Of a DNA stretch of 64,000 nucleotides, positions 6,110 to 51,604 are shown piece after piece. The position numbers and the translations under genes are program-made. Origin of the DNA: Alphaproteobacteria bacterium (GTDB lineage: Bacteria; Pseudomonadota; Alphaproteobacteria; SMXP01); assembly GCA_965214255.1 (NCBI GenBank), contig OZ243948.1, forward strand, positions 1,433,885 to 1,497,884, written 5' to 3'. Numbering within the stretch: position 1 is the stretch's first letter; each line of letters opens with the position of its first letter. The notes below the pieces were generated by a model, which saw only the letters and a list, made by a program, of their open reading frames with translations, was not told the origin of the DNA and did not search any database.

Positions 6110-8083
6110 CTACTTGCCGACGATCTCGCCCAGCAGCCCCCCGCTCTCCCGTCCCAGCGCGAGGATGTCGCCTCGAATCTCCTCAAGGGAGCGCATCGGC
6201 TCCGGCTTGTAGAAGTGGCGCGTGAAGCTGATCTCGTAGCCGATCTTGACAGCTTCCGGGCGATACCAGGCGTCGGGCGCGTAGGGCAAGACCTCGCGCT
6301 TCAGGAACGCCTCTATGCCGCCCTTCTCGGTGAGCGGGACCTGCTCCGTGTCGCGCAGGTCCGGGTCCGGCTCGTACTCGACCACGGCGGGTTCGCCCTC
6401 GACGGTCGCCTCGAACAAGCCATGCAGAGGGTCCGCCCCCCCCCGCCTGTGGATCTTGCGGATGACGGGCGGCGCGTCCTCGGAGCGCGCGCCGGTCTCT
6501 TTGAGCGTCTTGATCTCCGCCGCCTTGCAGGCGCGGTTCGGGTCGGCGCCCTCGATGCGGAGCGGGCGCTCCACGACCACTTTCCAATACCCGAAAGCCT
6601 CGTTGTCGAAGATCCTGCTCCGCTCGGTTTCCTCGAAATCGAGGAACGCCTCGCAGATGCGCCGGATGTCGTCCTCGCCCAACTCGCAGTTCTTCTTGCC
6701 CAGATTCTTACGCAGGGGCCGGTACCACTCGGTCGCGTCGATGAGTTGCACTTTGCCCCGGCGGTGCTCCGGCTTGCGGTTGGTCAGCACCCAGACGTAG
6801 GTGGCGATGCCGGTGTTGTAGAACAGGTTCAGCGGCAGCGCGACGATCGCTTCCAGCCAGTCGTTCTCGATGATCCAGCGGCGGATGTTGCTCTCGCCCT
6901 GGCCGGCGTCGCCGGTGAACAGCGAACTGCCGTTGTGGACCTCGGCGATGCGGCTGCCGAGGGGCGTGTCCCGCTTCATCTTGGAGAGCAGGTTGACGAG
7001 GAACAGCATCTGCCCGTCGCTCGACCGCGTCACCAGGGAATATTCCGGGTCGTCGCCGTGTTGGATCATAAAGCGCGGATCGTGCATGTCCTTCTTGCCG
7101 CCCATGCGCTCCAGGTCCGTCTTCCAGCTTTTGCCGTAGGGCGGATTGGAGAGCATGAAGTCGAACGCGCGCGGGTGGGGGTAGGCATCGTTGGCCAGGG
7201 TGGAGTGTTGCGGGCCGCCCTCGATTTTATCCGCGTCATCGCCCTCGCCCTTGAGCATCAGGTCGGCCTTGCAGATCGCCGCGGTCTCCGCGTTGATCTC
7301 CTGGCCGTAGAGGTGCGTCGAGACCTGTTTCCCGCGTTCCGCGGCCAGTTCCTGCAGCGTCTGTTCCGCCAGGGTCAGCATGCCGCCGGTCCCGCACGCG
7401 CCGTCATAGAGAAGGTACGTGCCGGATTCGATCCGGTCGGAGATCGGCTGGAACACCAGCTTCGCCATCAGCCGCACCGCGTCGCGGGGCGTCCAGTGCT
7501 CACCGGCCTCCTCGTTGTTCTCCTCGTTGAAGCGGCGCACCAGTTCTTCGAAGATCGTACCGATGGCGTGGTTGTCGAGGCCCGGGAGCTTGATATCGCC
7601 TTTGGCGTCCTTGACGGGTTCCGGGCTCAGGTTCACCTTGGGGGAGGTGAATTTCTCGATCAAGACCCCGAGCGCGTCGGCGCGGCTCAGGCGGGGGATC
7701 TGGTTGCGGAACTCGAAGTTGTCGAGTATCTCCTGCACGTTCGGCGAGAATCCGTCGAGATAGGCCAAGAAGTCCGCTTCAAGTTGGTGCTGGTTGCCTC
7801 GCGCCCGCAGATCGTTGAGCGTGAATTGGGAGGTGTTGTAGAACGCCTGCCCCGACGCCTGGCGCAAGGCGGCGCTCTGGTCGACCAGACCGGCCCGGTC
7901 GAGACTGGCCTTCATGTCGAGGACCGCCCGTTTGGTGTCTTCGAGGACCGCGTCGAGACGACGCAGGACGGTCATCGGGAGGATCACGTCGCGGTACTTG
8001 CCCCGCGTGTAGAGGTCCCGGAGCACGTCATCGGCGATTCCCCAAATGTAGTTCGCAATCCACGTTACATCGCCGTTGGTCAT
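6110..8083 (-). CDS. hsdM: Type I R-M N6-adenine DNA methyltransferase subunit HsdM (long form, 657 aa)
   Basis: NPPYG catalytic motif (LSNPPYGKSW) and a SAM-binding region (LYDGACGTGGML). Neighbours hsdS and hsdR lie on the same strand. Confidence 0.9.
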   Translation of the reverse strand: MTNGDVTWIANYIWGIADDVLRDLYTRGKYRDVILPMTVLRRLDAVLEDTKRAVLDMKASLDRAGLVDQSAALRQASGQAFYNTSQFTLNDLRARGNQHQLEADFLAYLDGFSPNVQEILDNFEFRNQIPRLSRADALGVLIEKFTSPKVNLSPEPVKDAKGDIKLPGLDNHAIGTIFEELVRRFNEENNEEAGEHWTPRDAVRLMAKLVFQPISDRIESGTYLLYDGACGTGGMLTLAEQTLQELAAERGKQVSTHLYGQEINAETAAICKADLMLKGEGDDADKIEGGPQHSTLANDAYPHPRAFDFMLSNPPYGKSWKTDLERMGGKKDMHDPRFMIQHGDDPEYSLVTRSSDGQMLFLVNLLSKMKRDTPLGSRIAEVHNGSSLFTGDAGQGESNIRRWIIENDWLEAIVALPLNLFYNTGIATYVWVLTNRKPEHRRGKVQLIDATEWYRPLRKNLGKKNCELGEDDIRRICEAFLDFEETERSRIFDNEAFGYWKVVVERPLRIEGADPNRACKAAEIKTLKETGARSEDAPPVIRKIHRRGGADPLHGLFEATVEGEPAVVEYEPDPDLRDTEQVPLTEKGGIEAFLKREVLPYAPDAWYRPEAVKIGYEISFTRHFYKPEPMRSLEEIRGDILALGRESGGLLGEIVGK

Positions 8084-44630: not shown

Positions 44631-46301
44631 ATGTCCGCTTTGATTTCACGCCATATCGCCACGGTCGGCAGCCGCCAAGTTCATTACCGCCGCGCCGGAG
44701 ACGGCCCGCCCGTCATGCTGTTGCACCAGTCGCCTACATCGTCGCGGGAATACGTGCCGTTGATTACGGAACTGGCAAAGGACTTCACCGTCTTTTCGCC
44801 CGACACGCCGGGCAACGGGCTGTCGGACCCCCTGCCGATCGAAACCGTCACCATGAGCGATCTGGCAGACGCGGTCGCGGGTCTCCTCGACGAACTGGGC
44901 ATTGAAAAAATTCCCGTCTACGGCTTTCACACGGGCGCGCTCTGCGCTCTTGAACTGGCCCGCCGTCATCCGGACCGCATCGCGCTGTCCATTGTCAACG
45001 GCTACATTCAGATGGACGACGCCACGCTTCAAGATTTTCTCGATCATTATTTTGCGGAACTCCATGTGGATTGGAGCGGCAGTCATCTCGCCTGGATCTG
45101 GGCGCGCATGCGCGAACAATATATTTTCTTCCCGTGGTACAAGAAGGGCCTCGAACACCGCGGAAATTTCGATCTTCCGTCCAAAGAGCATATTCACGAC
45201 GCCGTCATGGAAATTTTGAGGGCGGGCGATCACTATCGCGGGCCGTACCGCTCGGCGTTCATGTTCGACGCGGCGGAAGCCGTGCAACAGGTCACGGCAC
45301 CGACCGTCATGATGTGCGCGCGCAGCGACGTGTTGTTCGCCTTTTTCGAGGTGATGCCGAAACCGGCGGACTGCGTGACCAAGCTCGCGACGGACTCCCA
45401 CGAGCACAGCGAGCGGGAACTCGTTCGGCTGTTCAAGGAAAACCCCTCTTCGGCTGCCGCGCCCGAGGTCGCCCCGACCAGGGCGATGGAAGGCAAAGTG
45501 TGGCGTGAATGTTTCGCCGTAAACGGCGGCACGCTCTACGGGCGGCGCAACACCGACGGTCAGGGACGCCCCGTCGTCATTCAGCATGCCTCCGCCGGGT
45601 CGAGCGCGGGTCAGGTGGATCTGATGCAGGCGTTCATCGGCAAGCGTCCGGTGATCGCCTTCGATTTGCCGGGCAACGGCGAAAGCGACAGATTGCTGGA
45701 CGCCGACGACATCACCGTCGCCCGACAGGCGGATTTCCTGGCTCAAGGCATTCGCGCCGCGGGCTACGACGAAATCGATATCATCGGCGACTGGGGCGGC
45801 GGAACCGTAGCGGTCGAACTCGCGGCGCAGAACCCCGATCTCGTCAAACACGTCGCCGCGCCTCACCTGATCGTGCTCGACGACGCCACCCGCGAGAGGT
45901 ACCTTGAGCACTATACGCCGCCCCTCGACATCGACGAATATGGCGGGCATATGCTCAAGGCGTGGGTCATCATCCGCGATCAGGAACTTTTCGCCCCCTA
46001 TTTCGAGCGCAAGCGCGAGAACATCATTCGCTCGCACGAGCCGCGCATAGATCCGCAACACGTTCATCTGCGCACGCTCGATCTTTTGAAATGCGCCGAT
46101 CTTTACGGCAAGTTCTACGCCGCACACTTCACCTACCCGGTCCTGGATCGACTGAAGCGGCTTGCCTGCCCGATTCTGATCGGCGATCCGGACGGTCCGG
46201 CCGCCGCGCTCGACTTGCCCAACGTCACGGCGCGAAAACTGCCCTATGGACCCGGCCCCGAACTCGCCGACGCCCTGCTCACATTCTTCGAAACCGCGTA
46301 A
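44631..46301 (+). CDS. Tandem-duplicated alpha/beta-hydrolase-fold protein (epoxide-hydrolase/dehalogenase-like) with variant nucleophile elbow
   Basis: Domain 1 has HQSPTSS…PGNGLSDP…YGFHTGAL, with His at the nucleophile position. Domain 2 has QHASAGSS…PGNGESD…IGDWGGG, which is GHDWGG-like. Confidence 0.7.
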   Translation: MSALISRHIATVGSRQVHYRRAGDGPPVMLLHQSPTSSREYVPLITELAKDFTVFSPDTPGNGLSDPLPIETVTMSDLADAVAGLLDELGIEKIPVYGFHTGALCALELARRHPDRIALSIVNGYIQMDDATLQDFLDHYFAELHVDWSGSHLAWIWARMREQYIFFPWYKKGLEHRGNFDLPSKEHIHDAVMEILRAGDHYRGPYRSAFMFDAAEAVQQVTAPTVMMCARSDVLFAFFEVMPKPADCVTKLATDSHEHSERELVRLFKENPSSAAAPEVAPTRAMEGKVWRECFAVNGGTLYGRRNTDGQGRPVVIQHASAGSSAGQVDLMQAFIGKRPVIAFDLPGNGESDRLLDADDITVARQADFLAQGIRAAGYDEIDIIGDWGGGTVAVELAAQNPDLVKHVAAPHLIVLDDATRERYLEHYTPPLDIDEYGGHMLKAWVIIRDQELFAPYFERKRENIIRSHEPRIDPQHVHLRTLDLLKCADLYGKFYAAHFTYPVLDRLKRLACPILIGDPDGPAAALDLPNVTARKLPYGPGPELADALLTFFETA

Positions 46302-46314
46302 GGGAGTATCCTAC

Positions 46315-47154
46315 ATGCAGATCGACCGTGGATTCGTTCGCATCGACGAAGGTCTCGTACATTACCGCCATTGCGGCGAGCCGAGCGATGCGCCGCCGCT
46401 TTACATGATTCACGCCTCTCCGGCGTCGTCCATTGCCGTCGCCGGTCTCATGGGACACCTGGGCGCGACGCGCAAAGTCTACGCTCCCGATACGCTGGGC
46501 AACGGCGATTCGGCGCCGCCCGCCCTCGACAAGCCGCAAATGGACTACTACGCGGAAACCGTGACGCGGGTGCTCGATGGATTGGGACTCGATCAGGTGG
46601 ACATGTTCGGCAGCCACACCGGCGCGCACATCTCTTCGGAAGTCGCCATTCGTTATCCAGACCGCGTGCGCAGACTCGTCTTCGACGGCGTCGCCATGTT
46701 CACCGAAGACGAGCGCCGCGAATGTTTGGAGAATTACGCGCCCGAGATGGCGCCCGACATTTACGGCAATCATCTCAACTGGGCGTGGCACTTCGTACGC
46801 GACCAGGGCGCGTATTTCCCTTATTTCAAACGGGACCCCGAGCATGTCCGCAGCGTACCCATGCCGTCCGCGGACGTGCTTCACGCCATAACCGTAGAAG
46901 TGATGAAGGCGATCCGCACCTATCACAAAGGCTACCGCGCGGCTTTCAGTCACAACATTCGCGAGCGGCTGCCGCTCATCGAGCAGACGACGTTTTGCAT
47001 GGCGTCGGACTCCGATCCTCTGAACCCGGGCGTCGATGAAACGGCGCGTCTCGTCAAAAACTCCCGCAAAGCGATCCTGCCGGGCGAAGAGACGCCCGAA
47101 GGCTTGGAAGCCAAGGCCGAAGCCATTCAACGGTTTCTTGATGACCATGACTAA
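46315..47154 (+). CDS. Alpha/beta-hydrolase-fold protein, single domain (paralog)
   Basis: IHASPASS…LGNGDSAP…FGSHTGAH. ATG 46315 follows agggag. Confidence 0.7.
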   Translation: MQIDRGFVRIDEGLVHYRHCGEPSDAPPLYMIHASPASSIAVAGLMGHLGATRKVYAPDTLGNGDSAPPALDKPQMDYYAETVTRVLDGLGLDQVDMFGSHTGAHISSEVAIRYPDRVRRLVFDGVAMFTEDERRECLENYAPEMAPDIYGNHLNWAWHFVRDQGAYFPYFKRDPEHVRSVPMPSADVLHAITVEVMKAIRTYHKGYRAAFSHNIRERLPLIEQTTFCMASDSDPLNPGVDETARLVKNSRKAILPGEETPEGLEAKAEAIQRFLDDHD

Positions 47155-47983
47155 CCCCGCTCCATTCGGCCCCGCGAACATCGTGCGGGACTACGGCGCT
47201 TACGAGCACGGACAGATCCATTTCCGGATCTCCAGGCCGGACGACCCGGCGCGCACGCCGCTCATGTGCTTTCACATGAGTCCGAGTTCGGGCCGCATTT
47301 ACGCGCGGCTTTTGAGTTATCTGGGGACGGACCGGATAGCGCTCGCTCCGGACACGCCGGGCTTCGGCGAAACGGACGTGCCGCCCCGCCCCTTGGAGAT
47401 CGAAGATTTCGCCGAAGCGAATTTCGGATTGCTCGATCAATTGGGTTTGACCGGTGAAGTCGATGTCATGGGGTATCATACGGGCTCTTTGACCGCTTCC
47501 GAGATGGCGCGCCAACAGCCGGGGCGCATCCGCCGCGTGATCCTGATCTCCGCTCCGATCTTCACGGAAACGGAACTCGAAGAATTTCGCAACGAGTACG
47601 CGCACCGCGAAGTCAAGGAAGACGGCAGCCATCTGGTCGACTTGTGGAAGGCCGTGCGCTTCTGGGGCGACAAAACGCAAACCCTCGAAAACGCCATGGA
47701 GCACTATGCCGAACATTTGCGCGGCGGCAAGAATTCCTGGTGGGGCCACCGCGCGGCCTTCAACTACAAACTGCAGGACACGCTGCCGCGGCTCGGTCAG
47801 CCCATTCTGGTCCTCAATACGGAAGACGATCTGCACGAGCACTCCTTGCGCGCCGCGACGCTCATGCAGAACGGACGCATCCGGGAACTTCCCGGCTGGA
47901 GCCACGGGTTTCTGGATATCCATACGCAAGAGGTCGACGCCCTTGTCCGCGCGTTTCTCGACACGGACGAGGTCTCTTCTTGA
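47141..47983 (+). CDS. Alpha/beta-hydrolase-fold protein, single domain (paralog)
   Basis: FHMSPSSG…PGFGETD…MGYHTGSL. The start overlaps the previous gene by 14 bp, or by 8 bp if ATG 47147 is used. Confidence 0.7.
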   Translation: MTMTNPAPFGPANIVRDYGAYEHGQIHFRISRPDDPARTPLMCFHMSPSSGRIYARLLSYLGTDRIALAPDTPGFGETDVPPRPLEIEDFAEANFGLLDQLGLTGEVDVMGYHTGSLTASEMARQQPGRIRRVILISAPIFTETELEEFRNEYAHREVKEDGSHLVDLWKAVRFWGDKTQTLENAMEHYAEHLRGGKNSWWGHRAAFNYKLQDTLPRLGQPILVLNTEDDLHEHSLRAATLMQNGRIRELPGWSHGFLDIHTQEVDALVRAFLDTDEVSS

Positions 47984-48010
47984 TAACGGCGGTTCGTCGT
48001 TCCGGGGCCC

Positions 48011-49613
48011 TTGCATATTGCGGTGTGTTCGACAATAAAAGCGTTTATGACGGACACGAGACCGACGGCGGCGACGGACCGCTTCACCCTTTTGACGGTC
48101 GCCATCGCCGCACTCGGCGCGGGACTCGTGCTGGGACGCGAGTTCACCTTCGGAGTGGTATTATTCTCGGATTCGGCGTCTCATATAGGCGCCGCCCGGA
48201 GTCTGCTGGCCGGGGAAGGACTTCTCAGATGGGACGGCAACCCTTATATTTCGTGGCCTCCTCTCTACCCCCTGCTTCTGGCCGCGGCCAGTTTGGGGAT
48301 ATTCGATCCCATCGCCGTCGCCGGCCCTCTCAACGCCGTCATTTTCGGACTGACTATTTTCATCGTGGGGCGGTATCTGCGGCAACGCCTGGCGTCCCGA
48401 TTCCTGGCGGCATGGGGCTGTCTGGCAACGGCCCTGGCGATCCCGCTGGTGACAATTTCGTCATGGGCGCTCGCCGATACCCTGTTGATCCTGCTGACGA
48501 CCCTGGCGCTCATTCAGACCGACAGGTTCCTGACCGAGGGCAAGACCCGGACGCTGGTCTGGGCGGCGGTGTTCAGCGCCCTGGCCTTGCAGTCCCGGTA
48601 CATCGGGGTTGTCGTGCCGGTTTTTATAGGGCTGCTGCTCCTCTTCCAGCGGGGGGGGGGCCATGGCCCGGAGAGCGGGGCGCGTCGCCGCTTGCTCTCT
48701 GATCGTGGCGGCGCCGACGGTCCTGTGGTTTCTGCGCAATCTCTTGACCGTCGGAGTGATCAAGAGGTACCGCCCGCCCGGCGGCGATCCTCTGATGCTG
48801 CTGCGGGATGTTTTCGACATCCTGTGGAGTTGGGCGCAAATCAATAGTGCTGCGGTGGTCCTGGCGTCGCTCGCCTGTATTTTCGTTGTCGTGCAATGGA
48901 GGCGTTTGACCGTTGCCGACTGGCGGCCTTTCTGGCTGTTCGCGGGTTTCGCGCTGACGTACCTCGTCCTGCTCATCGCGGTCTTATCGTTTCTGACCAA
49001 TGTCAACCCTCATCGTATAGGGGAGAGACAGATGATTCCGGTGTATATTCCACTCCTGATAGCCGTGGTGTTCGTGCTGGACCGTGTTCTCGACCATGAA
49101 CGAGAGAGGAAGCTGTTGGGAAGCGTCGGCGGCCTGCCGATCGTTCGAACGATGATGCCGGGAAAGAAGGGAAGCGCGCTGGCCGCCATTGTCATGATCG
49201 TTCTTTCTCTGGGAGCGGCGAGTCAGATATTTCCGAACGTCTCCGGCATTATCAAAGCAAACCGCGGCGAGATTTTCCTGGGGTTAAGCGGGCCGCGCTG
49301 GGCCGGTTCCGAGACGATGCGATACCTCCGGGAAAACCCCGTTGCGGGGGAAATATTGAGCAATACGCCATATCCTTTGTCGCTTTACCTCGGTAGAAAC
49401 TATAAGTATCCATCCTACCATTATATGCCGAAAGTCTCCCGGGGCGGGCTGGAGCGGCTATTGATCCCGGACGGCGCGTACATAATCTGGTTCTACAGAC
49501 CAACGTGGAACCGGCGTGAATATGTCTATGGCGGATCCGACCTGGAATTAATTCCGGGCCTGCAACCGGTGGCGGAACTGGCGGACGGTATCGTCTTCAG
49601 GGTGGCAAGGTGA
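48011..49613 (+). pseudogene. Polytopic membrane protein (GT-C/ArnT/PMT-like) split into two frames at a G10 homopolymer
   Basis: ORF 48011..48847 (frame 2) and ORF 48663..49613 (frame 0) are both multi-transmembrane. They join in-frame if the G tract at 48651..48660 is G9. Confidence 0.55.
48651..48660. repeat. Poly-G (G10) homopolymer at the frameshift site
   Basis: Sequence is ctcttccagc + gggggggggg + ccatgg. Confidence 0.9.
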
Positions 49614-49789
49614 ACAGACGCGCGGAGGGCGCCCGCGACGACCGGGGCGGTTCATCGTTCCGGGACGGTTGCATACCGGGGCGTGTTCAGCGACAAGGGT
49701 GTTCATGGCGGACGCGAGACTGACGGCAGTGGGATTCGCGCCATCGGCAGGGTGCGGCGCGCGCGTATCGGCGAGCGAGCCGCGCTCGC

Positions 49790-50557
49790 CTATCGCTCTT
49801 CGGAATTTTCCAACCGCTCGCGGATCTGACGATTGATCTCCTCGGCGCCGGGGCGCGTGTCTTTCACCGTCGGATCCACCGCGTTGTAGATTCGACCGAT
49901 GGTGCCGTCGTCTTCAAGCGCTTGAACCACGAGGAGCGCTACATCCGATCTCATTATGGAACCTGCCGGAGAGTTCGTCGGGAGCAACTCTCCCTTGCCC
50001 GTGGGCAGGCCGTCGATCAGACCGCCCGGGCGGATGATGGTGTAATCGAGGCCGCTGGCAATCAAGTGGTCTTCGCCGCGCCGTTTTTCGTACATGACAT
50101 TTCCCATGTAATCCCCCGGATCGGGCTTTTCGGTCGGCGCGTCGTCGACGCCGATGGCGCTCACCTGGATGACGCGTTTGACGCCCGCCGCCAGCGCGGA
50201 CTCGTTGATATTCCTGTTGCCGACATAGTCGGGCCGCGGTTCTCCGGGGCGGCCGCCCAAAGAACTCACCACCGCGGTGAACGAGCCGGACGCAAAGGCA
50301 GCCGCCACGTCGCCGTCGTTCAAGGCGTCACCCACGACATACGAAACGCCAAGCGGCTCCAAACCTTCAAGATTGGATGTGGGCCTGACAAAGACGGTGA
50401 CGTCCCGGCCCTGGCCGCGCAGCAGCTTTACCGTTTCAAGTCCGCAGCCGCTCGTGCCGCCGAATACGAGAATGCGGTCATCCGCCCGCGCCGACGTGAG
50501 CGCGGCGCCGAGACCGAGCGCCAAGCCGAAAATACTCGATATCCACTTTTTCAACAT
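49790..50557 (-). CDS. NAD(P)-binding NmrA-like/atypical SDR protein with signal peptide (paralog of 20467..21255)
   Basis: ATG 50557 has a ggagga RBS. Signal MLKKWISSIFGLALGLGAALTSARA, then ILVFGGTSGCG. Confidence 0.7.
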   Translation of the reverse strand: MLKKWISSIFGLALGLGAALTSARADDRILVFGGTSGCGLETVKLLRGQGRDVTVFVRPTSNLEGLEPLGVSYVVGDALNDGDVAAAFASGSFTAVVSSLGGRPGEPRPDYVGNRNINESALAAGVKRVIQVSAIGVDDAPTEKPDPGDYMGNVMYEKRRGEDHLIASGLDYTIIRPGGLIDGLPTGKGELLPTNSPAGSIMRSDVALLVVQALEDDGTIGRIYNAVDPTVKDTRPGAEEINRQIRERLENSEER

Positions 50558-50660
50558 GATGGGCATCTCCTCCATTTCCGAACGGGCCGTATTGCAGGGG
50601 CCGCGCAGACCGCCGTGACGACTCGCCGTTCGCCGGCCTTCATGTATTTATGTAAAAACG

Positions 50661-51527
50661 TCAGTAGCACAGTGTTTCGCGGCCGGGCGCGCGGCCGTAT
50701 CGTTCGAGTCCGGGCGGCAATACGGGGCGGTGTTGCGGCGTCCATGTGAAGCTTTCGTCGCCCTCGGGAGTTTCCGTTTCCAGCGGGCCGCCTTCGGTAC
50801 GGAACAGCATGAGGTTGCCGGTCTTGGATCCGAAAGGCCCGTGGCGCATGTGGGGCGGGCGCCAAAAATACGCGCCGGGCATCATGATACCCGTATCGCC
50901 CGCCATCTCGCCGGTGAGCAAATACATCTCTTCGACAACGGGATGCACTTCAACGACGCTGTTCCGCCACAGGGGCGGCGCCGAAATGATCCACGTTTGA
51001 TTCCCCGTGTAAGGATCGACACGGAGCACCAGATTTCCGAAGTCCGCGACGCCTTCGCCGAGCGCGCTGTCCGGATCCACGTTGAGCCTGGTTTGATCAT
51101 GCGAAAAGGACGCCGTCAGCACGTCGACGCGCTCGATGAGCAGGTCCGGGTCATATAATCCCGACGGCGCGGGGCCGGCCGCGGAAACGGGCTCGCCGGA
51201 GTAAAACGTCAAAACGACGGCGCCGTCCGGCGATTCCACCTCGGTGCGCGCATAGCCGGCCGGCAGATGGGCGTAACACATTTCACCGTAATCAATGTCA
51301 TTGATCTTCAGAGCGCCGCCCAAAACGAAAAGTTCCTCGTGAACGGGCACGTGTTCGACCGCACGCCTTCGCCAACCGGGCGGATATTTGACGAGCGTGC
51401 TGCCGGCCCCGCTGTCGGCGTCCCGGCTCAGGACTTTTACCTCCGTGTCTTCCAGAAGGCCGCCCCAGGGACTTTTCGTCCAGGGCAAAGCCTGCGATTG
51501 AATGAACTCGATATGAGGCCGCGGCAT
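50661..51527 (-). CDS. Bicupin-like hypothetical protein (paralog 2 of 3)
   Basis: See the bicupin paralog at 41253..42158. Confidence 0.55.
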   Translation of the reverse strand: MPRPHIEFIQSQALPWTKSPWGGLLEDTEVKVLSRDADSGAGSTLVKYPPGWRRRAVEHVPVHEELFVLGGALKINDIDYGEMCYAHLPAGYARTEVESPDGAVVLTFYSGEPVSAAGPAPSGLYDPDLLIERVDVLTASFSHDQTRLNVDPDSALGEGVADFGNLVLRVDPYTGNQTWIISAPPLWRNSVVEVHPVVEEMYLLTGEMAGDTGIMMPGAYFWRPPHMRHGPFGSKTGNLMLFRTEGGPLETETPEGDESFTWTPQHRPVLPPGLERYGRAPGRETLCY

Positions 51528-51604
51528 CGTTTCCTCTCTTGATCGATTCCTGGTCCCCGCCCGAAAGGCAAGACGCGGATTTTAGCACGAGCGCGCGCCC
51601 GCTT

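What the first reader, a model, noticed from the sequence alone, without database searches (positions are those of the whole stretch)
48640..48670. G10 homopolymer frameshift splits a GT-C-like membrane protein: candidate phase-variable contingency gene or a homopolymer sequencing error
ORF1 (48011-48847) and ORF2 (48663-49613) are both polytopic. They fuse into one ~530-aa protein if the tract is G9 or G12. Slipped-strand mispairing at poly-G is the classic ON/OFF switch for surface-glycan-modifying enzymes.
Basis: partly seen in the sequence, partly recalled or inferred. Interest (0 to 1): 0.55.

Follow-up and report, generated by a model that had tools for sequence, protein, structure and literature searches.

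The report
Poly-G frameshift in duplicated GT-C glycosyltransferase
A run of ten G's really does cut a membrane sugar-transferase gene in two, and because two strains and three assemblies show it, it is not a sequencing error; it is most likely an ordinary slippage on/off switch caught in the off position, or else a dying spare copy of a gene that is intact elsewhere in the genome.

Summary
G10 lies at 48651-48660. ORF1 (ATG 48047) and ORF2 (48663-49613) are the two halves of one protein, and G9 gives 521 aa. The fused protein folds confidently (pLDDT 81) and matches ArnT and other GT-C glycosyltransferases.

Sequencing error is rejected. A second strain (98.6% nt identity, two assemblies, one with SPAdes-style contig names) has the same G10 in the same wrong frame.

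The split gene is a roughly 1.8-kb duplicate. An intact, 92%-identical paralog elsewhere in the genome has G5 at this loop.

Within the wider family, the same Arg-rich loop carries G9 (in frame, twice), T7C7 and C24 (both out of frame) in other genomes, and one member has C27 just upstream of its start. Every broken copy at this loop is one 1-nt slip from full length.

The best reading (about 0.5) is a slipped-strand contingency locus seen OFF. The main rival (about 0.28) is a frameshifted redundant duplicate. No tract-length heterogeneity and no ON allele were found, and reads were not available.

This is a known kind of mechanism in an uncharacterised GT-C family. Interest is moderate.

The parts
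48651..48660 (+). G10 homopolymer, the frameshift site and candidate slippage switch. It encodes part of the short Arg-rich loop (residues ~200-205) between two transmembrane helices.
   Evidence: Sequence read directly. G9, G12 or G6 restore a 520-522 aa ORF. The same G10 is in strain 2 (L017:5983-5992, L018:5851-5860). The intact paralog has G5 here. The loop lies between AF2 helices 185-199 and 206-235.
48047..48847 (+). ORF1: the N-terminal ~204 native residues of the GT-C protein (TM1-TM6 and the first periplasmic loop with invariant D42), followed by ~62 out-of-frame residues and a stop. The mechanical ORF starts at TTG 48011.
   Evidence: The exact 266-aa product is on record on a 2,787,154-bp contig (P0126). 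The family HMM matches positions 9-212. D42 is invariant in the 28-sequence alignment.
48663..49613 (+). ORF2: the C-terminal 316 residues (remaining TM helices and a ~115-aa C-terminal beta-rich domain), in the +1 frame relative to ORF1. Its ATG lies 2 nt after the tract.
   Evidence: The family HMM matches positions 211-549. The product called from an internal Met (P0124, 272 aa) is on the same 2,787,154-bp contig.
47988..48069 (+). Upstream copy of an 82-nt direct repeat: a conserved leader (CTTGCATATTGCGGTGTGTTCGACAATAAAAGCGTTT) plus the first ~8 codons of the gene. It marks the left end of the duplicated segment shared with the paralog locus.
   Evidence: the repeat finder family D1, 77% identity, spacing 1658 nt. 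In the 5-way alignment, similarity to the paralog locus begins ~60 nt upstream of the ATG.
49646..49727 (+). Downstream copy of the 82-nt repeat: the same leader plus ATGGCGGACGCGAGACTGACGGC. In the paralog locus this begins the next gene (a Type ISP restriction-modification enzyme). Here only the first few codons survive, so it is a relic showing that this copy is the derived duplicate.
   Evidence: In L019 the repeat leads into ORFs of 216 + 911 aa carrying N6_Mtase and Type_ISP_C domains. In the window, similarity ends after ~25 coding nt and the next gene is on the other strand (49790-50575, NAD_binding_10).

Best explanation
The locus is a real, duplicated copy of an uncharacterised GT-C-fold (ArnT/PMT-like) membrane glycosyltransferase. 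Its coding sequence contains a hypermutable G10 tract in a short cytoplasmic loop. As assembled, the tract is one base too long, so translation ends after ~204 native plus ~62 junk residues. That product lacks the C-terminal TM helices and the periplasmic domain, so this copy is OFF.

Slipped-strand mispairing during replication would delete one G (G9) at high frequency and regenerate a 521-aa enzyme with loop FQRGGAMARR. The locus would then behave as a stochastic ON/OFF contingency switch for a cell-envelope glycan modification, next to a constitutively intact paralog that has G5 at this site.

Shown here: the tract, the frames, the fold, the persistence of G10 in two strains, the paralog, and the recurrence of long tracts at the same loop in other family members. 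Inferred: that switching actually occurs in the population, that the G9 product is active, and what it glycosylates.
For: (1) Real tract, not an error. G10 and the same frame occur in the window, L017 and L018. The strains are 98.5-98.6% identical over 7.9-11.3 kb, and the only gap is a 6-nt indel beside the tract.
(2) One -1 slip restores the ORF in both alleles: 521 aa in the window, 523 aa in L017/L018.
(3) The tract is an expansion, G5CCC in the paralog versus G10CC here. It is not a by-product of codon usage: GGG is 16.5% of Gly codons in this window's genes and GGC is 62%.
(4) Recurrence at the same loop in independent family members. G9 in frame in two copies (L004:4741-4749, L006:12191-12199). 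G6 in two copies. T7C7 out of frame in L010, on a SPAdes-named contig. C24 out of frame in L011. Of the 5 disrupted copies among the family copies found in these loci, 3 break exactly at HMM positions 211-213, and each has no other lesion and is one 1-nt slip from full length.
(5) A family member has C27 about 55 nt upstream of its ATG (L013). 9 of 23 G/C runs >=9 in 427 kb of loci lie in or within 150 nt of family genes, which cover 11.6% of the sequence (binomial P = 7e-4, with ascertainment caveat).
(6) The loop is short, Arg-rich and varies in length across homologs, so it tolerates extra Gly or Pro.
(7) The same genomes put G9 tracts in other classic phase-variable gene classes: hsdM in this window (in frame, G5 in a third strain), and the Type ISP enzyme next to the paralog (split at G9, G8 gives 1108 aa).
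(8) The mechanism is well established for poly-G tracts in surface-glycan genes (PMC11868660, PMC8437040, PMC5953494).
Against: No tract-length heterogeneity was seen: G10 in all three assemblies and both strains. No ON (full-length) allele of this copy exists among the members of its 90% protein cluster, which holds only the paralog's products and ORF2 fragments. An intact 92% paralog makes this copy dispensable. dN/dS is ~0.6 in both halves against 0-0.3 in the flanking genes. ORF integrity is not statistically informative: 70 random substitutions leave the ORF free of stops in 14% of simulations. The neighbours are hydrolases, an oxidoreductase, an MFS transporter and a racemase, not a glycan locus. 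G>=9 runs are not enriched in the window as a whole. The length of C24 in L011 comes from a contig of unknown, possibly long-read, assembly and may be miscounted. Reads were not available.
Confidence: 0.5

Rival explanations
1. Frameshifted redundant duplicate (pseudogene). A ~1.8-kb segment carrying the GT-C gene was copied into this locus. A G5 seed expanded to G10 by mutation alone and killed the copy. It is dispensable because the parent copy is intact, and it merely has not yet collected further lesions. Any slippage at G10 is without consequence.
For: The copy is OFF in every assembly and in both strains, and no ON allele is on record. An intact paralog exists in the same genome or MAG. 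The copy carries a truncated relic of the parent locus's neighbouring gene, so it is the derived duplicate. dN/dS is ~0.6 and nucleotide divergence is 4.1-4.7% against 0.2-1.5% in the flanks. The window copy has 21 lineage-specific changes in the N-terminal half, against 4 in strain 2. Absence of stops is not significant. The same lineage also expanded G5 to G9 in hsdM without breaking that gene, which suggests a general mutational tendency.
Against: The intact paralog shows the same syn:nonsyn ratio (13:21) as the split copies (16:27 and 11:15), so the ratio does not single out the split copy. Elevated dS and elevated divergence of the duplicated non-coding flanks point to exchange between paralogs rather than decay. 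A neutral hypermutable tract should drift in length, yet both strains have G10. Three independent family members are broken at the same loop and nowhere else, each one slip from intact.
Confidence: 0.28
2. Recoding. The out-of-frame G10 is conserved because full-length protein is made without any DNA change. RNA polymerase slippage on the G run would yield a fraction of G9 transcripts, or a +1 ribosomal shift would occur on GGG GGG. Either gives constitutive low-level expression, as described for frameshifted poly(A) genes of insect endosymbionts.
For: The identical out-of-frame tract length occurs in two strains that differ by 70 substitutions within the gene, with both halves still open. The all-G run allows perfect re-pairing after a shift. 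Precedents for rescue at homopolymers: PMC5009743, PMC4256274, PMC3017870.
Against: Documented bacterial transcriptional slippage is mainly on A/T runs (own knowledge; review PMC5009743). There is no rare or stop codon at the site to stimulate a +1 shift. The 120 nt downstream show no structure beyond shuffles (z = -0.34). Other family members have in-frame tracts (G9) or other lengths, so there is no conserved recoding signal.
Confidence: 0.07
3. Two-piece enzyme. The N-terminal fragment and a C-terminal fragment started at ATG 48663 (with the G run acting as a Shine-Dalgarno-like element 2 nt upstream) are both made and assemble into an active GT-C.
For: An ATG follows the tract immediately and ORF2 is complete. 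The break falls in a loop between helices rather than inside a helix.
Against: The Met is also present in intact paralogs (QRGPMARR), so it did not evolve for restart. A 2-nt spacing from the end of the G run is short for an SD (inference). ORF1 would carry a 62-residue junk tail. No split GT-C is known to me (own knowledge). Nothing here tests it.
Confidence: 0.05
4. Homopolymer sequencing or assembly error: the true tract is G9 and the gene is intact.
For: Long G runs are error-prone on several platforms. The platform of the window's assembly is unknown.
Against: Three assemblies agree on G10: the window, L017, and L018 with SPAdes-style naming at coverage 18, which suggests short reads. In strain 2 the tract sits in a different local context (G10-TGGGGC-CC) that is also out of frame. 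Across 11.3 kb the two strains differ by no other indel, so neither assembly is indel-noisy. G9 runs elsewhere are assembled in frame.
Confidence: 0.03

Closest known systems
Simple-sequence-repeat contingency loci in surface-glycan genes (poly-G tracts in Campylobacter jejuni LOS/CPS genes; Neisseria lgt/pgl genes; Haemophilus LOS genes): PMC8437040, PMC5953494, PMC6479036, review PMC11868660
   Same: An intragenic G/C homopolymer of 8-13 nt. A 1-nt slip toggles the reading frame. The target is a glycan-modifying enzyme. The gene is otherwise intact. Restriction-modification genes in the same genomes also carry tracts.
   Different: The enzyme here has the GT-C fold, an integral membrane enzyme expected to use a lipid-linked donor, whereas most classic examples are soluble or peripheral enzymes (own knowledge). 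The tract lies mid-gene in a cytoplasmic inter-helix loop rather than near the 5' end. The organism is an uncultured bacterium known only from assemblies. No length heterogeneity has been observed. An intact paralog coexists.
ArnT / PMT_2 (GT83/GT39-type) GT-C glycosyltransferases, e.g. Cupriavidus metallidurans ArnT, PDB 5EZM/5F15
   Same: Best structural match (E 7.5e-8, TMq 0.60). Weak PMT_2 match across residues 71-227. An invariant Asp (D42) lies in the first extracytoplasmic loop.
   Different: The sequence match is below Pfam's threshold (25.8 vs 26.1 bits). A family profile finds no PDB sequence. The C-terminal domain and substrate are unknown. Many homologs add 1-3 copies of a ~110-aa C-terminal module absent from ArnT.
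Phase-variable O-antigen glucosylation (gtr operons, GtrC-type membrane transferases) of Salmonella and Shigella phages (own knowledge; not tested here)
   Same: ON/OFF control of a polytopic membrane glycosyltransferase that decorates an envelope glycan. Several paralogous copies occur per genome.
   Different: gtr switching is epigenetic (Dam/OxyR at the promoter), not a coding-sequence repeat. There is no gtrA/gtrB partner next to this gene.
Frameshifted homopolymer genes rescued by transcriptional slippage (insect endosymbionts; Citrobacter tssM): PMC5009743, PMC3017870, PMC4256274
   Same: An out-of-frame homopolymer conserved between strains, with both halves of the gene still open.
   Different: Those tracts are poly(A/T). 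Here the tract is poly(G), and there is no expression evidence.

Membership tests
GT-C fold glycosyltransferase superfamily (ArnT/PMT/STT3/Emb-like) | Multi-pass N-terminal membrane domain with the conserved GT-C core architecture | tested here: met
   AF2 model of the G9-fused protein: pLDDT 81, pTM 0.83, with blocks across the junction at 81-88. All 40 best Foldseek PDB hits are GT-C enzymes, with ArnT 5EZM at E 7.5e-8, TMq 0.60.
GT-C fold glycosyltransferase superfamily (ArnT/PMT/STT3/Emb-like) | Conserved acidic catalytic residue in the first extracytoplasmic loop | tested here: inconclusive
   D42 (motif DSAxxI) is invariant in 28 homologs and lies in the helix-loop after TM1. No residue-level superposition on the ArnT or PglB catalytic Asp was available.
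Pfam PF13231 PMT_2 | Score at or above the curated gathering threshold (26.1 bits) | tested here: not met
   25.8 bits, E 1.4e-5, residues 71-227. 10 of 28 family members match at E <= 0.01 and none matches better. So it is a remote relative and not a curated member.
NCBIfam LA_3751/LA_3752 putative glycosyltransferase; Agl23 | Score at or above the curated cut-off (200 and 126 bits) | tested here: not met
   19.8 and 16.3 bits.
SSR-mediated phase-variable (contingency) locus | Hypermutable repeat (G/C run of about 8 or more) within the ORF or promoter | tested here: met
   G10 at 48651-48660 inside the coding sequence.
SSR-mediated phase-variable (contingency) locus | Single repeat-unit changes switch between a full-length and a truncated product, and the gene is otherwise intact | tested here: met
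   G9 gives 521 aa and G10 gives 266 aa. There is no other stop or frameshift in either strain.
SSR-mediated phase-variable (contingency) locus | Observed tract-length variation within or between populations | tested here: not met
   G10 in the window, L017 and L018. The only difference is a 6-nt indel beside the run. Only consensus assemblies of two strains were available. JGI metagenome scans found no further alleles. Read-level heterogeneity is not testable with these tools.
SSR-mediated phase-variable (contingency) locus | Repeat maintained or recurrent beyond chance at the locus (evidence of selection for mutability) | tested here: inconclusive
   The same loop carries G9, G9, G10, T7C7 and C24 in independent family members, and one has C27 in its upstream region. 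Tracts are enriched in or near family genes, P = 7e-4. However, the loop is Pro/Gly-rich, the loci were ascertained through the family, and G>=9 runs are not enriched in the window.
Pseudogene (decaying duplicate) | Neutral evolution (dN/dS near 1) and accumulation of further lesions | tested here: inconclusive
   dN/dS is 0.60-0.63, higher than in the flanks but equal to the ratio on the intact paralog's lineage. There are no further lesions, but that has a 14% chance under neutrality.
Programmed frameshift / transcriptional slippage site | Conserved out-of-frame slippery run with a stimulatory element, and a product spanning the junction | tested here: inconclusive
   The run is conserved in two strains. 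No downstream structure was found (z = -0.34). Expression is not testable here.

The most novel reading that the evidence does not exclude
This sequence-orphan GT-C family, together with neighbouring genes that share its ~110-aa C-terminal module, may form a homopolymer-driven 'phasome' of envelope-glycan enzymes in uncultured bacteria. The family is multi-copy per genome and about 60% identical between MAGs labelled as different phyla. It would have a dedicated switch loop that has independently acquired G9-G10, T7C7 and C24 tracts, plus promoter-proximal tracts up to C27. On this reading, surface-glycan bet-hedging by simple repeats, known almost only from host-adapted pathogens, would be a general and horizontally shared strategy in these communities. 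A sub-variant is that the conserved out-of-frame G10 is decoded by poly-G transcriptional slippage.
Probability: 0.2. Interest if true: 0.65.

Novelty: new member of a known kind. Interest (0 to 1): 0.4.

Why it matters
For annotation, the two ORFs should be recorded as one frameshifted GT-C glycosyltransferase gene with a slippage-prone tract, not as two hypothetical membrane proteins and not as an assembly error.

Biologically, if switching is confirmed, it would extend simple-repeat contingency behaviour to an integral-membrane GT-C enzyme family in uncultured bacteria. It would also give a concrete, testable marker set: the loop tract here, the hsdM G9, and the Type ISP G9. These could be used to look for bet-hedging of envelope glycans and DNA methylation in natural communities from read data alone.

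If switching is not confirmed, the locus is an ordinary dying duplicate.

Tried and rejected
- **JGI metagenome scans.** A DNA pattern spanning the tract with a variable gap and a 28-sequence family alignment both returned nothing, so they added no alleles.
- **Exact look-ups.** P0001 and the ORF1 product P0126 are not on record as genes. The window genome's own paralog locus could therefore not be read. The other strain's paralog (L019/L020) was used instead.
- **Rfam.** No hits over the whole window.
- **Family profile against PDB sequences.** Only a spurious E = 0.85 hit. The GT-C assignment rests on fold and a sub-threshold PMT_2 match.
- **Promoter/terminator scan of 47800-49900.** Nothing above shuffles, and the conserved leader was not called.
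- **RNA structure downstream of the tract.** z = -0.34.
- **ORF integrity as a test of selection.** Not significant, 14% under neutrality.
- **Second paralog downstream.** I considered that the region after the gene (49650-51540) holds a broken second copy. tblastn shows only one copy in the window. The resemblance is limited to the 82-nt leader repeat.
- **P0001 as an ortholog.** I first treated P0001 as an ortholog from a related strain. It is a paralog: it sits on a contig of the same 2,787,154-bp length, and both loci occur in one MAG of strain 2.
- **ORF2-only protein search.** It found no split copies beyond L010 and L011.
- **C13 at the start of L019.** It lies at a contig end that does not align with L020, so it says nothing about length variation.
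- **Literature.** Searches for phase variation in sponge symbionts or in GT-C enzymes found nothing relevant.
Full report
**1. Observation**

The sequence at 48640-48670 reads CCTCTTCCAGC-GGGGGGGGGG-CCATGGCCCG, so the run is exactly G10 at 48651-48660. It is the only G/C run of 10 or more in the 64-kb window. The only other run of 9 or more is C9 at 6436-6444.

The likely ORF1 start is ATG 48047, which gives the same MTDTR N-terminus as the homologs. Editing the tract in silico gives 266 aa for G10, 521 aa for G9, 522 aa for G12 and 520 aa for G6. tblastn of the fused protein back onto the window shows residues 1-211 and 203-521 in adjacent frames, with no other interruption and no second copy in the window.

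By composition alone a G>=9 run is unremarkable: 3 overlapping matches against 1.25 +/- 1.64 in shuffles. The non-random aspect is where it sits.

**2. What the gene is**

The fused protein has 516 database relatives at E <= 1e-3. The best 120 are almost all full length and cover 94-100% of it as single proteins of about 500-835 aa. The two ORFs are therefore halves of one gene.

Sequence-level assignment is weak:
- Pfam gives only a sub-threshold PMT_2 match (25.8 vs 26.1 bits). Its span, residues 71-227, crosses the junction.
- 10 of 28 family members give similarly weak PMT_2 matches.
- NCBIfam hits are far below their cut-offs.
- A family profile finds no PDB sequence.

The fold is clear. 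An AlphaFold2 model built with 28 homologs has pLDDT 81 and pTM 0.83, and is confident across the junction. Its 40 best Foldseek matches in the PDB are all GT-C glycosyltransferases. ArnT comes first (5EZM, E 7.5e-8, TMq 0.60), followed by ALG9/ALG12, AftA, Pmt4, STT3, PglB and EmbA/B/C. An Asp at position 42, in the segment after the first helix, is invariant.

The tract encodes residues ~200-205, a six-residue loop between helices 185-199 and 206-235. The loop and the start of the next helix read FQRGGAMARRAGR. By the positive-inside rule this places it in the cytoplasm (topology is inferred). Homologs vary in length and sequence here, for example QPG.., HPRAG.., YPPPHRTG, SGKGG.

The neighbours are three alpha/beta-hydrolase genes, an NAD(P)-binding protein, a ChrR-type cupin, an MFS transporter and a racemase. 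This is not a polysaccharide locus.

**3. Not a sequencing error**

The exact ORF1 product, and the ORF2 product called from an internal Met, are on record on a 2,787,154-bp contig, which is evidently the source of the window.

The 90% protein cluster also contained ORF2-like fragments from other assemblies. Looking these up gave two syntenic loci:
- L017, from NCBI MAG GCA_964347375.1.
- L018, from ENA ERZ21849000, contig NODE_4033_length_8569_cov_17.99. This is a SPAdes-style name, which suggests a short-read assembly (inference).

L017 and L018 are 99.96% identical to each other. They are 98.5-98.6% identical to the window over 7.9-11.3 kb, with a single gap. That gap is at the tract:

| Copy | Loop sequence |
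|---|---|
| Window | CAGC-G10-CC-ATGG |
| Second strain (L017/L018) | CAGC-G10-TGGGGC-CC-ATGG |

Both are out of frame, and both are restored by G9, to 521 and 523 aa. Three assemblies and two strains agree on G10, and there is no other indel noise between them. An error is therefore very unlikely.

**4. The copy is a duplicate of an intact gene**

The best database hit, P0001 (520 aa, 92% identical, intact), sits on a contig of the same 2,787,154-bp length. In the second strain the equivalent intact gene lies on another contig of the same MAG and of the same metagenome assembly (L020, L019). It is therefore a paralog, not an ortholog. Its loop is CAGC-G5-CCC-ATGG, encoding QRGPMARR.

A five-way alignment shows where the two loci are similar. 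Similarity runs from about 60 nt upstream of the ATG to about 130 nt past the stop. The segment is bounded by an 82-nt direct repeat (47988-48069 and 49646-49727, 77% identical). The repeat consists of a conserved leader plus the first ~8 codons.

In the paralog locus the downstream repeat begins a Type ISP restriction-modification gene. In the window only its first few codons remain. The window's copy is therefore the derived duplicate.

**5. How the copy is evolving**

Between the two strains the duplicated segment is a divergence hot spot:
- The two coding halves differ at 4.1-4.7% of sites and the segment's non-coding flanks at 4.5-7.9%, against 0.2-1.5% in the surrounding genes.
- dS is raised: 0.058-0.070 against 0.008-0.044.
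- dN/dS is 0.60-0.63 in both halves, against 0-0.34 in the flanks.

Polarising the changes with the paralog gives syn:nonsyn counts of 16:27 (window copy), 11:15 (strain-2 copy) and 13:21 (intact paralog). The ratio is therefore a property of the family and not of the broken copy.

The raised dS, and the near-identity of the strain-2 N-terminal half to its own paralog, point to exchange between paralogs (inference).

The absence of further stops is not informative, because 70 random substitutions leave the ORF open in 14% of simulations.

**6. Family-level evidence for a slippage hot spot**

A genome scan returned 16 loci from MAGs labelled Gammaproteobacteria, Pseudomonadales, Alphaproteobacteria, Nitrospirales, Dehalococcoidia and Bryobacterales. 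They often hold several copies each, at 35-64% identity.

At the same loop these copies carry the following tracts:

| Tract | Locus | Frame |
|---|---|---|
| G9 | L004:4741-4749 | in frame |
| G9 | L006:12191-12199 | in frame |
| G6 | two copies | in frame |
| G5/C5 | several copies | in frame |
| T7C7 | L010, SPAdes-named contig | out of frame |
| C24 | L011:10573-10596 | out of frame |

Five of the family copies found in these loci are disrupted. Three of them (the window lineage, L010, L011) break exactly at HMM positions 211-213 and nowhere else. Each is one 1-nt slip from full length. The ORF2-only protein search found the same two extra fragments and no others.

Other supporting points:
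- One member has C27 about 55 nt upstream of its start codon (L013).
- Of 23 G/C runs >=9 in 427 kb of loci, 9 lie in or within 150 nt of family genes, which cover 11.6% of the sequence. The binomial P is 7e-4. The window and L017 are one locus counted twice, and the loci were ascertained through the family.
- GGG is a minor Gly codon in this window's genes (16.5%, against 62% for GGC). The run is therefore not a codon-usage by-product.

**7. Other tracts in these genomes**

The window's C9 is G9 on the coding strand of a Type I hsdM (6110-8083, minus strand). It is in frame in a 657-aa protein that matches 657-661-aa homologs end to end. A third strain (L021, 97% nt identity) has G5 and a 3-nt longer local sequence at this site.

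The Type ISP gene beside the intact paralog is split into 216 + 911 aa at a G9. G8 would give 1108 aa.

Restriction-modification and glycan-modifying genes are the classic classes of repeat-controlled genes (PMC11868660, PMC5953494, PMC8437040).

**8. Mechanism and rivals**

Best reading (about 0.5): a slipped-strand contingency locus seen OFF.
- Shown: a real G10; a frame that one deletion restores; a tolerant loop; persistence of the same tract in two strains; recurrence of tracts at this loop across the family.
- Inferred: that G9 cells arise and are selected, and that the enzyme modifies an envelope glycan from a lipid-linked donor, as GT-C enzymes do.

Main rival (about 0.28): a frameshifted redundant duplicate. 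Supporting it, every assembly is OFF, no ON allele is on record, the parent copy is intact, and constraint is relaxed.

Minor rivals:
- Recoding by poly-G transcriptional slippage or a +1 ribosomal shift (0.07). No stimulatory element was found and there is no downstream structure. Precedents are mainly poly(A/T) (PMC5009743, PMC4256274, PMC3017870).
- A two-piece enzyme restarted at ATG 48663 (0.05).
- Sequencing error (0.03).

**9. Comparison with what is known, and verdict**

The locus works like the poly-G contingency genes of Campylobacter, Neisseria and Haemophilus. It differs in four ways:
- The enzyme class is integral-membrane GT-C.
- The tract lies mid-gene in an inter-helix loop.
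- The organism is uncultured.
- An intact paralog coexists.

Membership of the contingency-locus class is incomplete. The defining observation, tract-length variation, was tested on the available assemblies and not seen. It cannot be tested at read level here.

The protein is a GT-C-fold enzyme by structure but not a curated member of PMT_2.

Overall this is a new member of a known kind and of moderate interest. The family-wide pattern of long tracts is the part most worth following up.

Noticed in passing
window 6436-6444 (minus-strand gene 6110-8083): The window's only other long run (C9, which is G9 on the coding strand) lies in frame in the C-terminal third of a Type I restriction-modification methylase, HsdM (657 aa, IHRRGGADPLH). 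A third strain (L021, ERZ25070786, 97% nt identity) has G5 and a 3-nt longer local sequence (IHRPGAEADPLH). This lineage has therefore expanded G5 seeds to G9-G10 at two or more sites.
   Followed up: yes
L019:10235-10243 and L020:10355-10363: The Type ISP restriction-modification gene next to the intact GT-C paralog is split into 216 + 911 aa at a G9 run. G8 or G11 would give a 1108-1109-aa protein. It is a second candidate slippage switch in the same species.
   Followed up: partly
window 47988-48069 and 49646-49727: An 82-nt direct repeat (77% identical) brackets the gene. It consists of a conserved leader with TTGCAT...17 nt...AATAAA/GACAAG just before the ATG, plus the first ~8 codons (MTDTRPTA / MADARLTA). 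The same module heads both the GT-C gene and the Type ISP gene in the paralog locus. It may be a shared promoter/5' cassette and the substrate for the duplication.
   Followed up: partly
window ~47990-49740 compared with L017: The duplicated segment is a sharp divergence hot spot between two strains: 4-8% against 0.2-1.5% in the flanks, with raised dS. The three sites at which L017 and L018 differ co-vary with their respective paralogs (L020, L019). This suggests gene conversion between paralogs or consensus cross-talk between repeats during assembly.
   Followed up: partly
L001:13412-13432, L003:2766-2785, L009:6175-6192, L011:8435-8450/11586-11601/13647-13667/17100-17121, L013:9844-9870: Very long G/C homopolymers (16-27 nt) lie next to or near family genes in several MAGs. 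L011 has five within 9 kb. Several sit inside large ORFs that have no Pfam match but are related to one another (L001~L011 at 82-85%, L003~L007 at 80%). These ORFs share only a ~110-aa C-terminal module (FFLH..DLP..GFDN.DF..C..LP.Y.I..IRTGQ) with the long members of the GT-C family. L009's C18 lies inside a different PMT_2-type GT-C gene. Tract lengths in these assemblies may be imprecise.
   Followed up: partly
loci L001-L016: The family is multi-copy, with 2-5 copies per genome, often in tandem. It is 55-64% identical between MAGs labelled Gammaproteobacteria, Alphaproteobacteria and Nitrospirales. It has no relatives in the JGI metagenome collection by the patterns used. This suggests horizontal sharing within one habitat. 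The habitat could not be established with these tools.
   Followed up: no
L016:10600-11000 and L012:~11365: Two Dehalococcoidia family copies are disrupted at other positions (HMM ~249 and ~480-490), with no long homopolymer at the break. These look like ordinary pseudogenes or assembly breaks and contrast with the loop-tract cases.
   Followed up: no
window 44631-47983: There are three consecutive alpha/beta-hydrolase genes upstream. The first (556 aa) has two Abhydrolase_1 stretches. The second and third mechanical ORFs overlap by ~118 nt (46246-47154 and 47036-47983). Gene calls in strain 2 are shorter (279 and 280 aa), so the true starts are probably internal.
   Followed up: no
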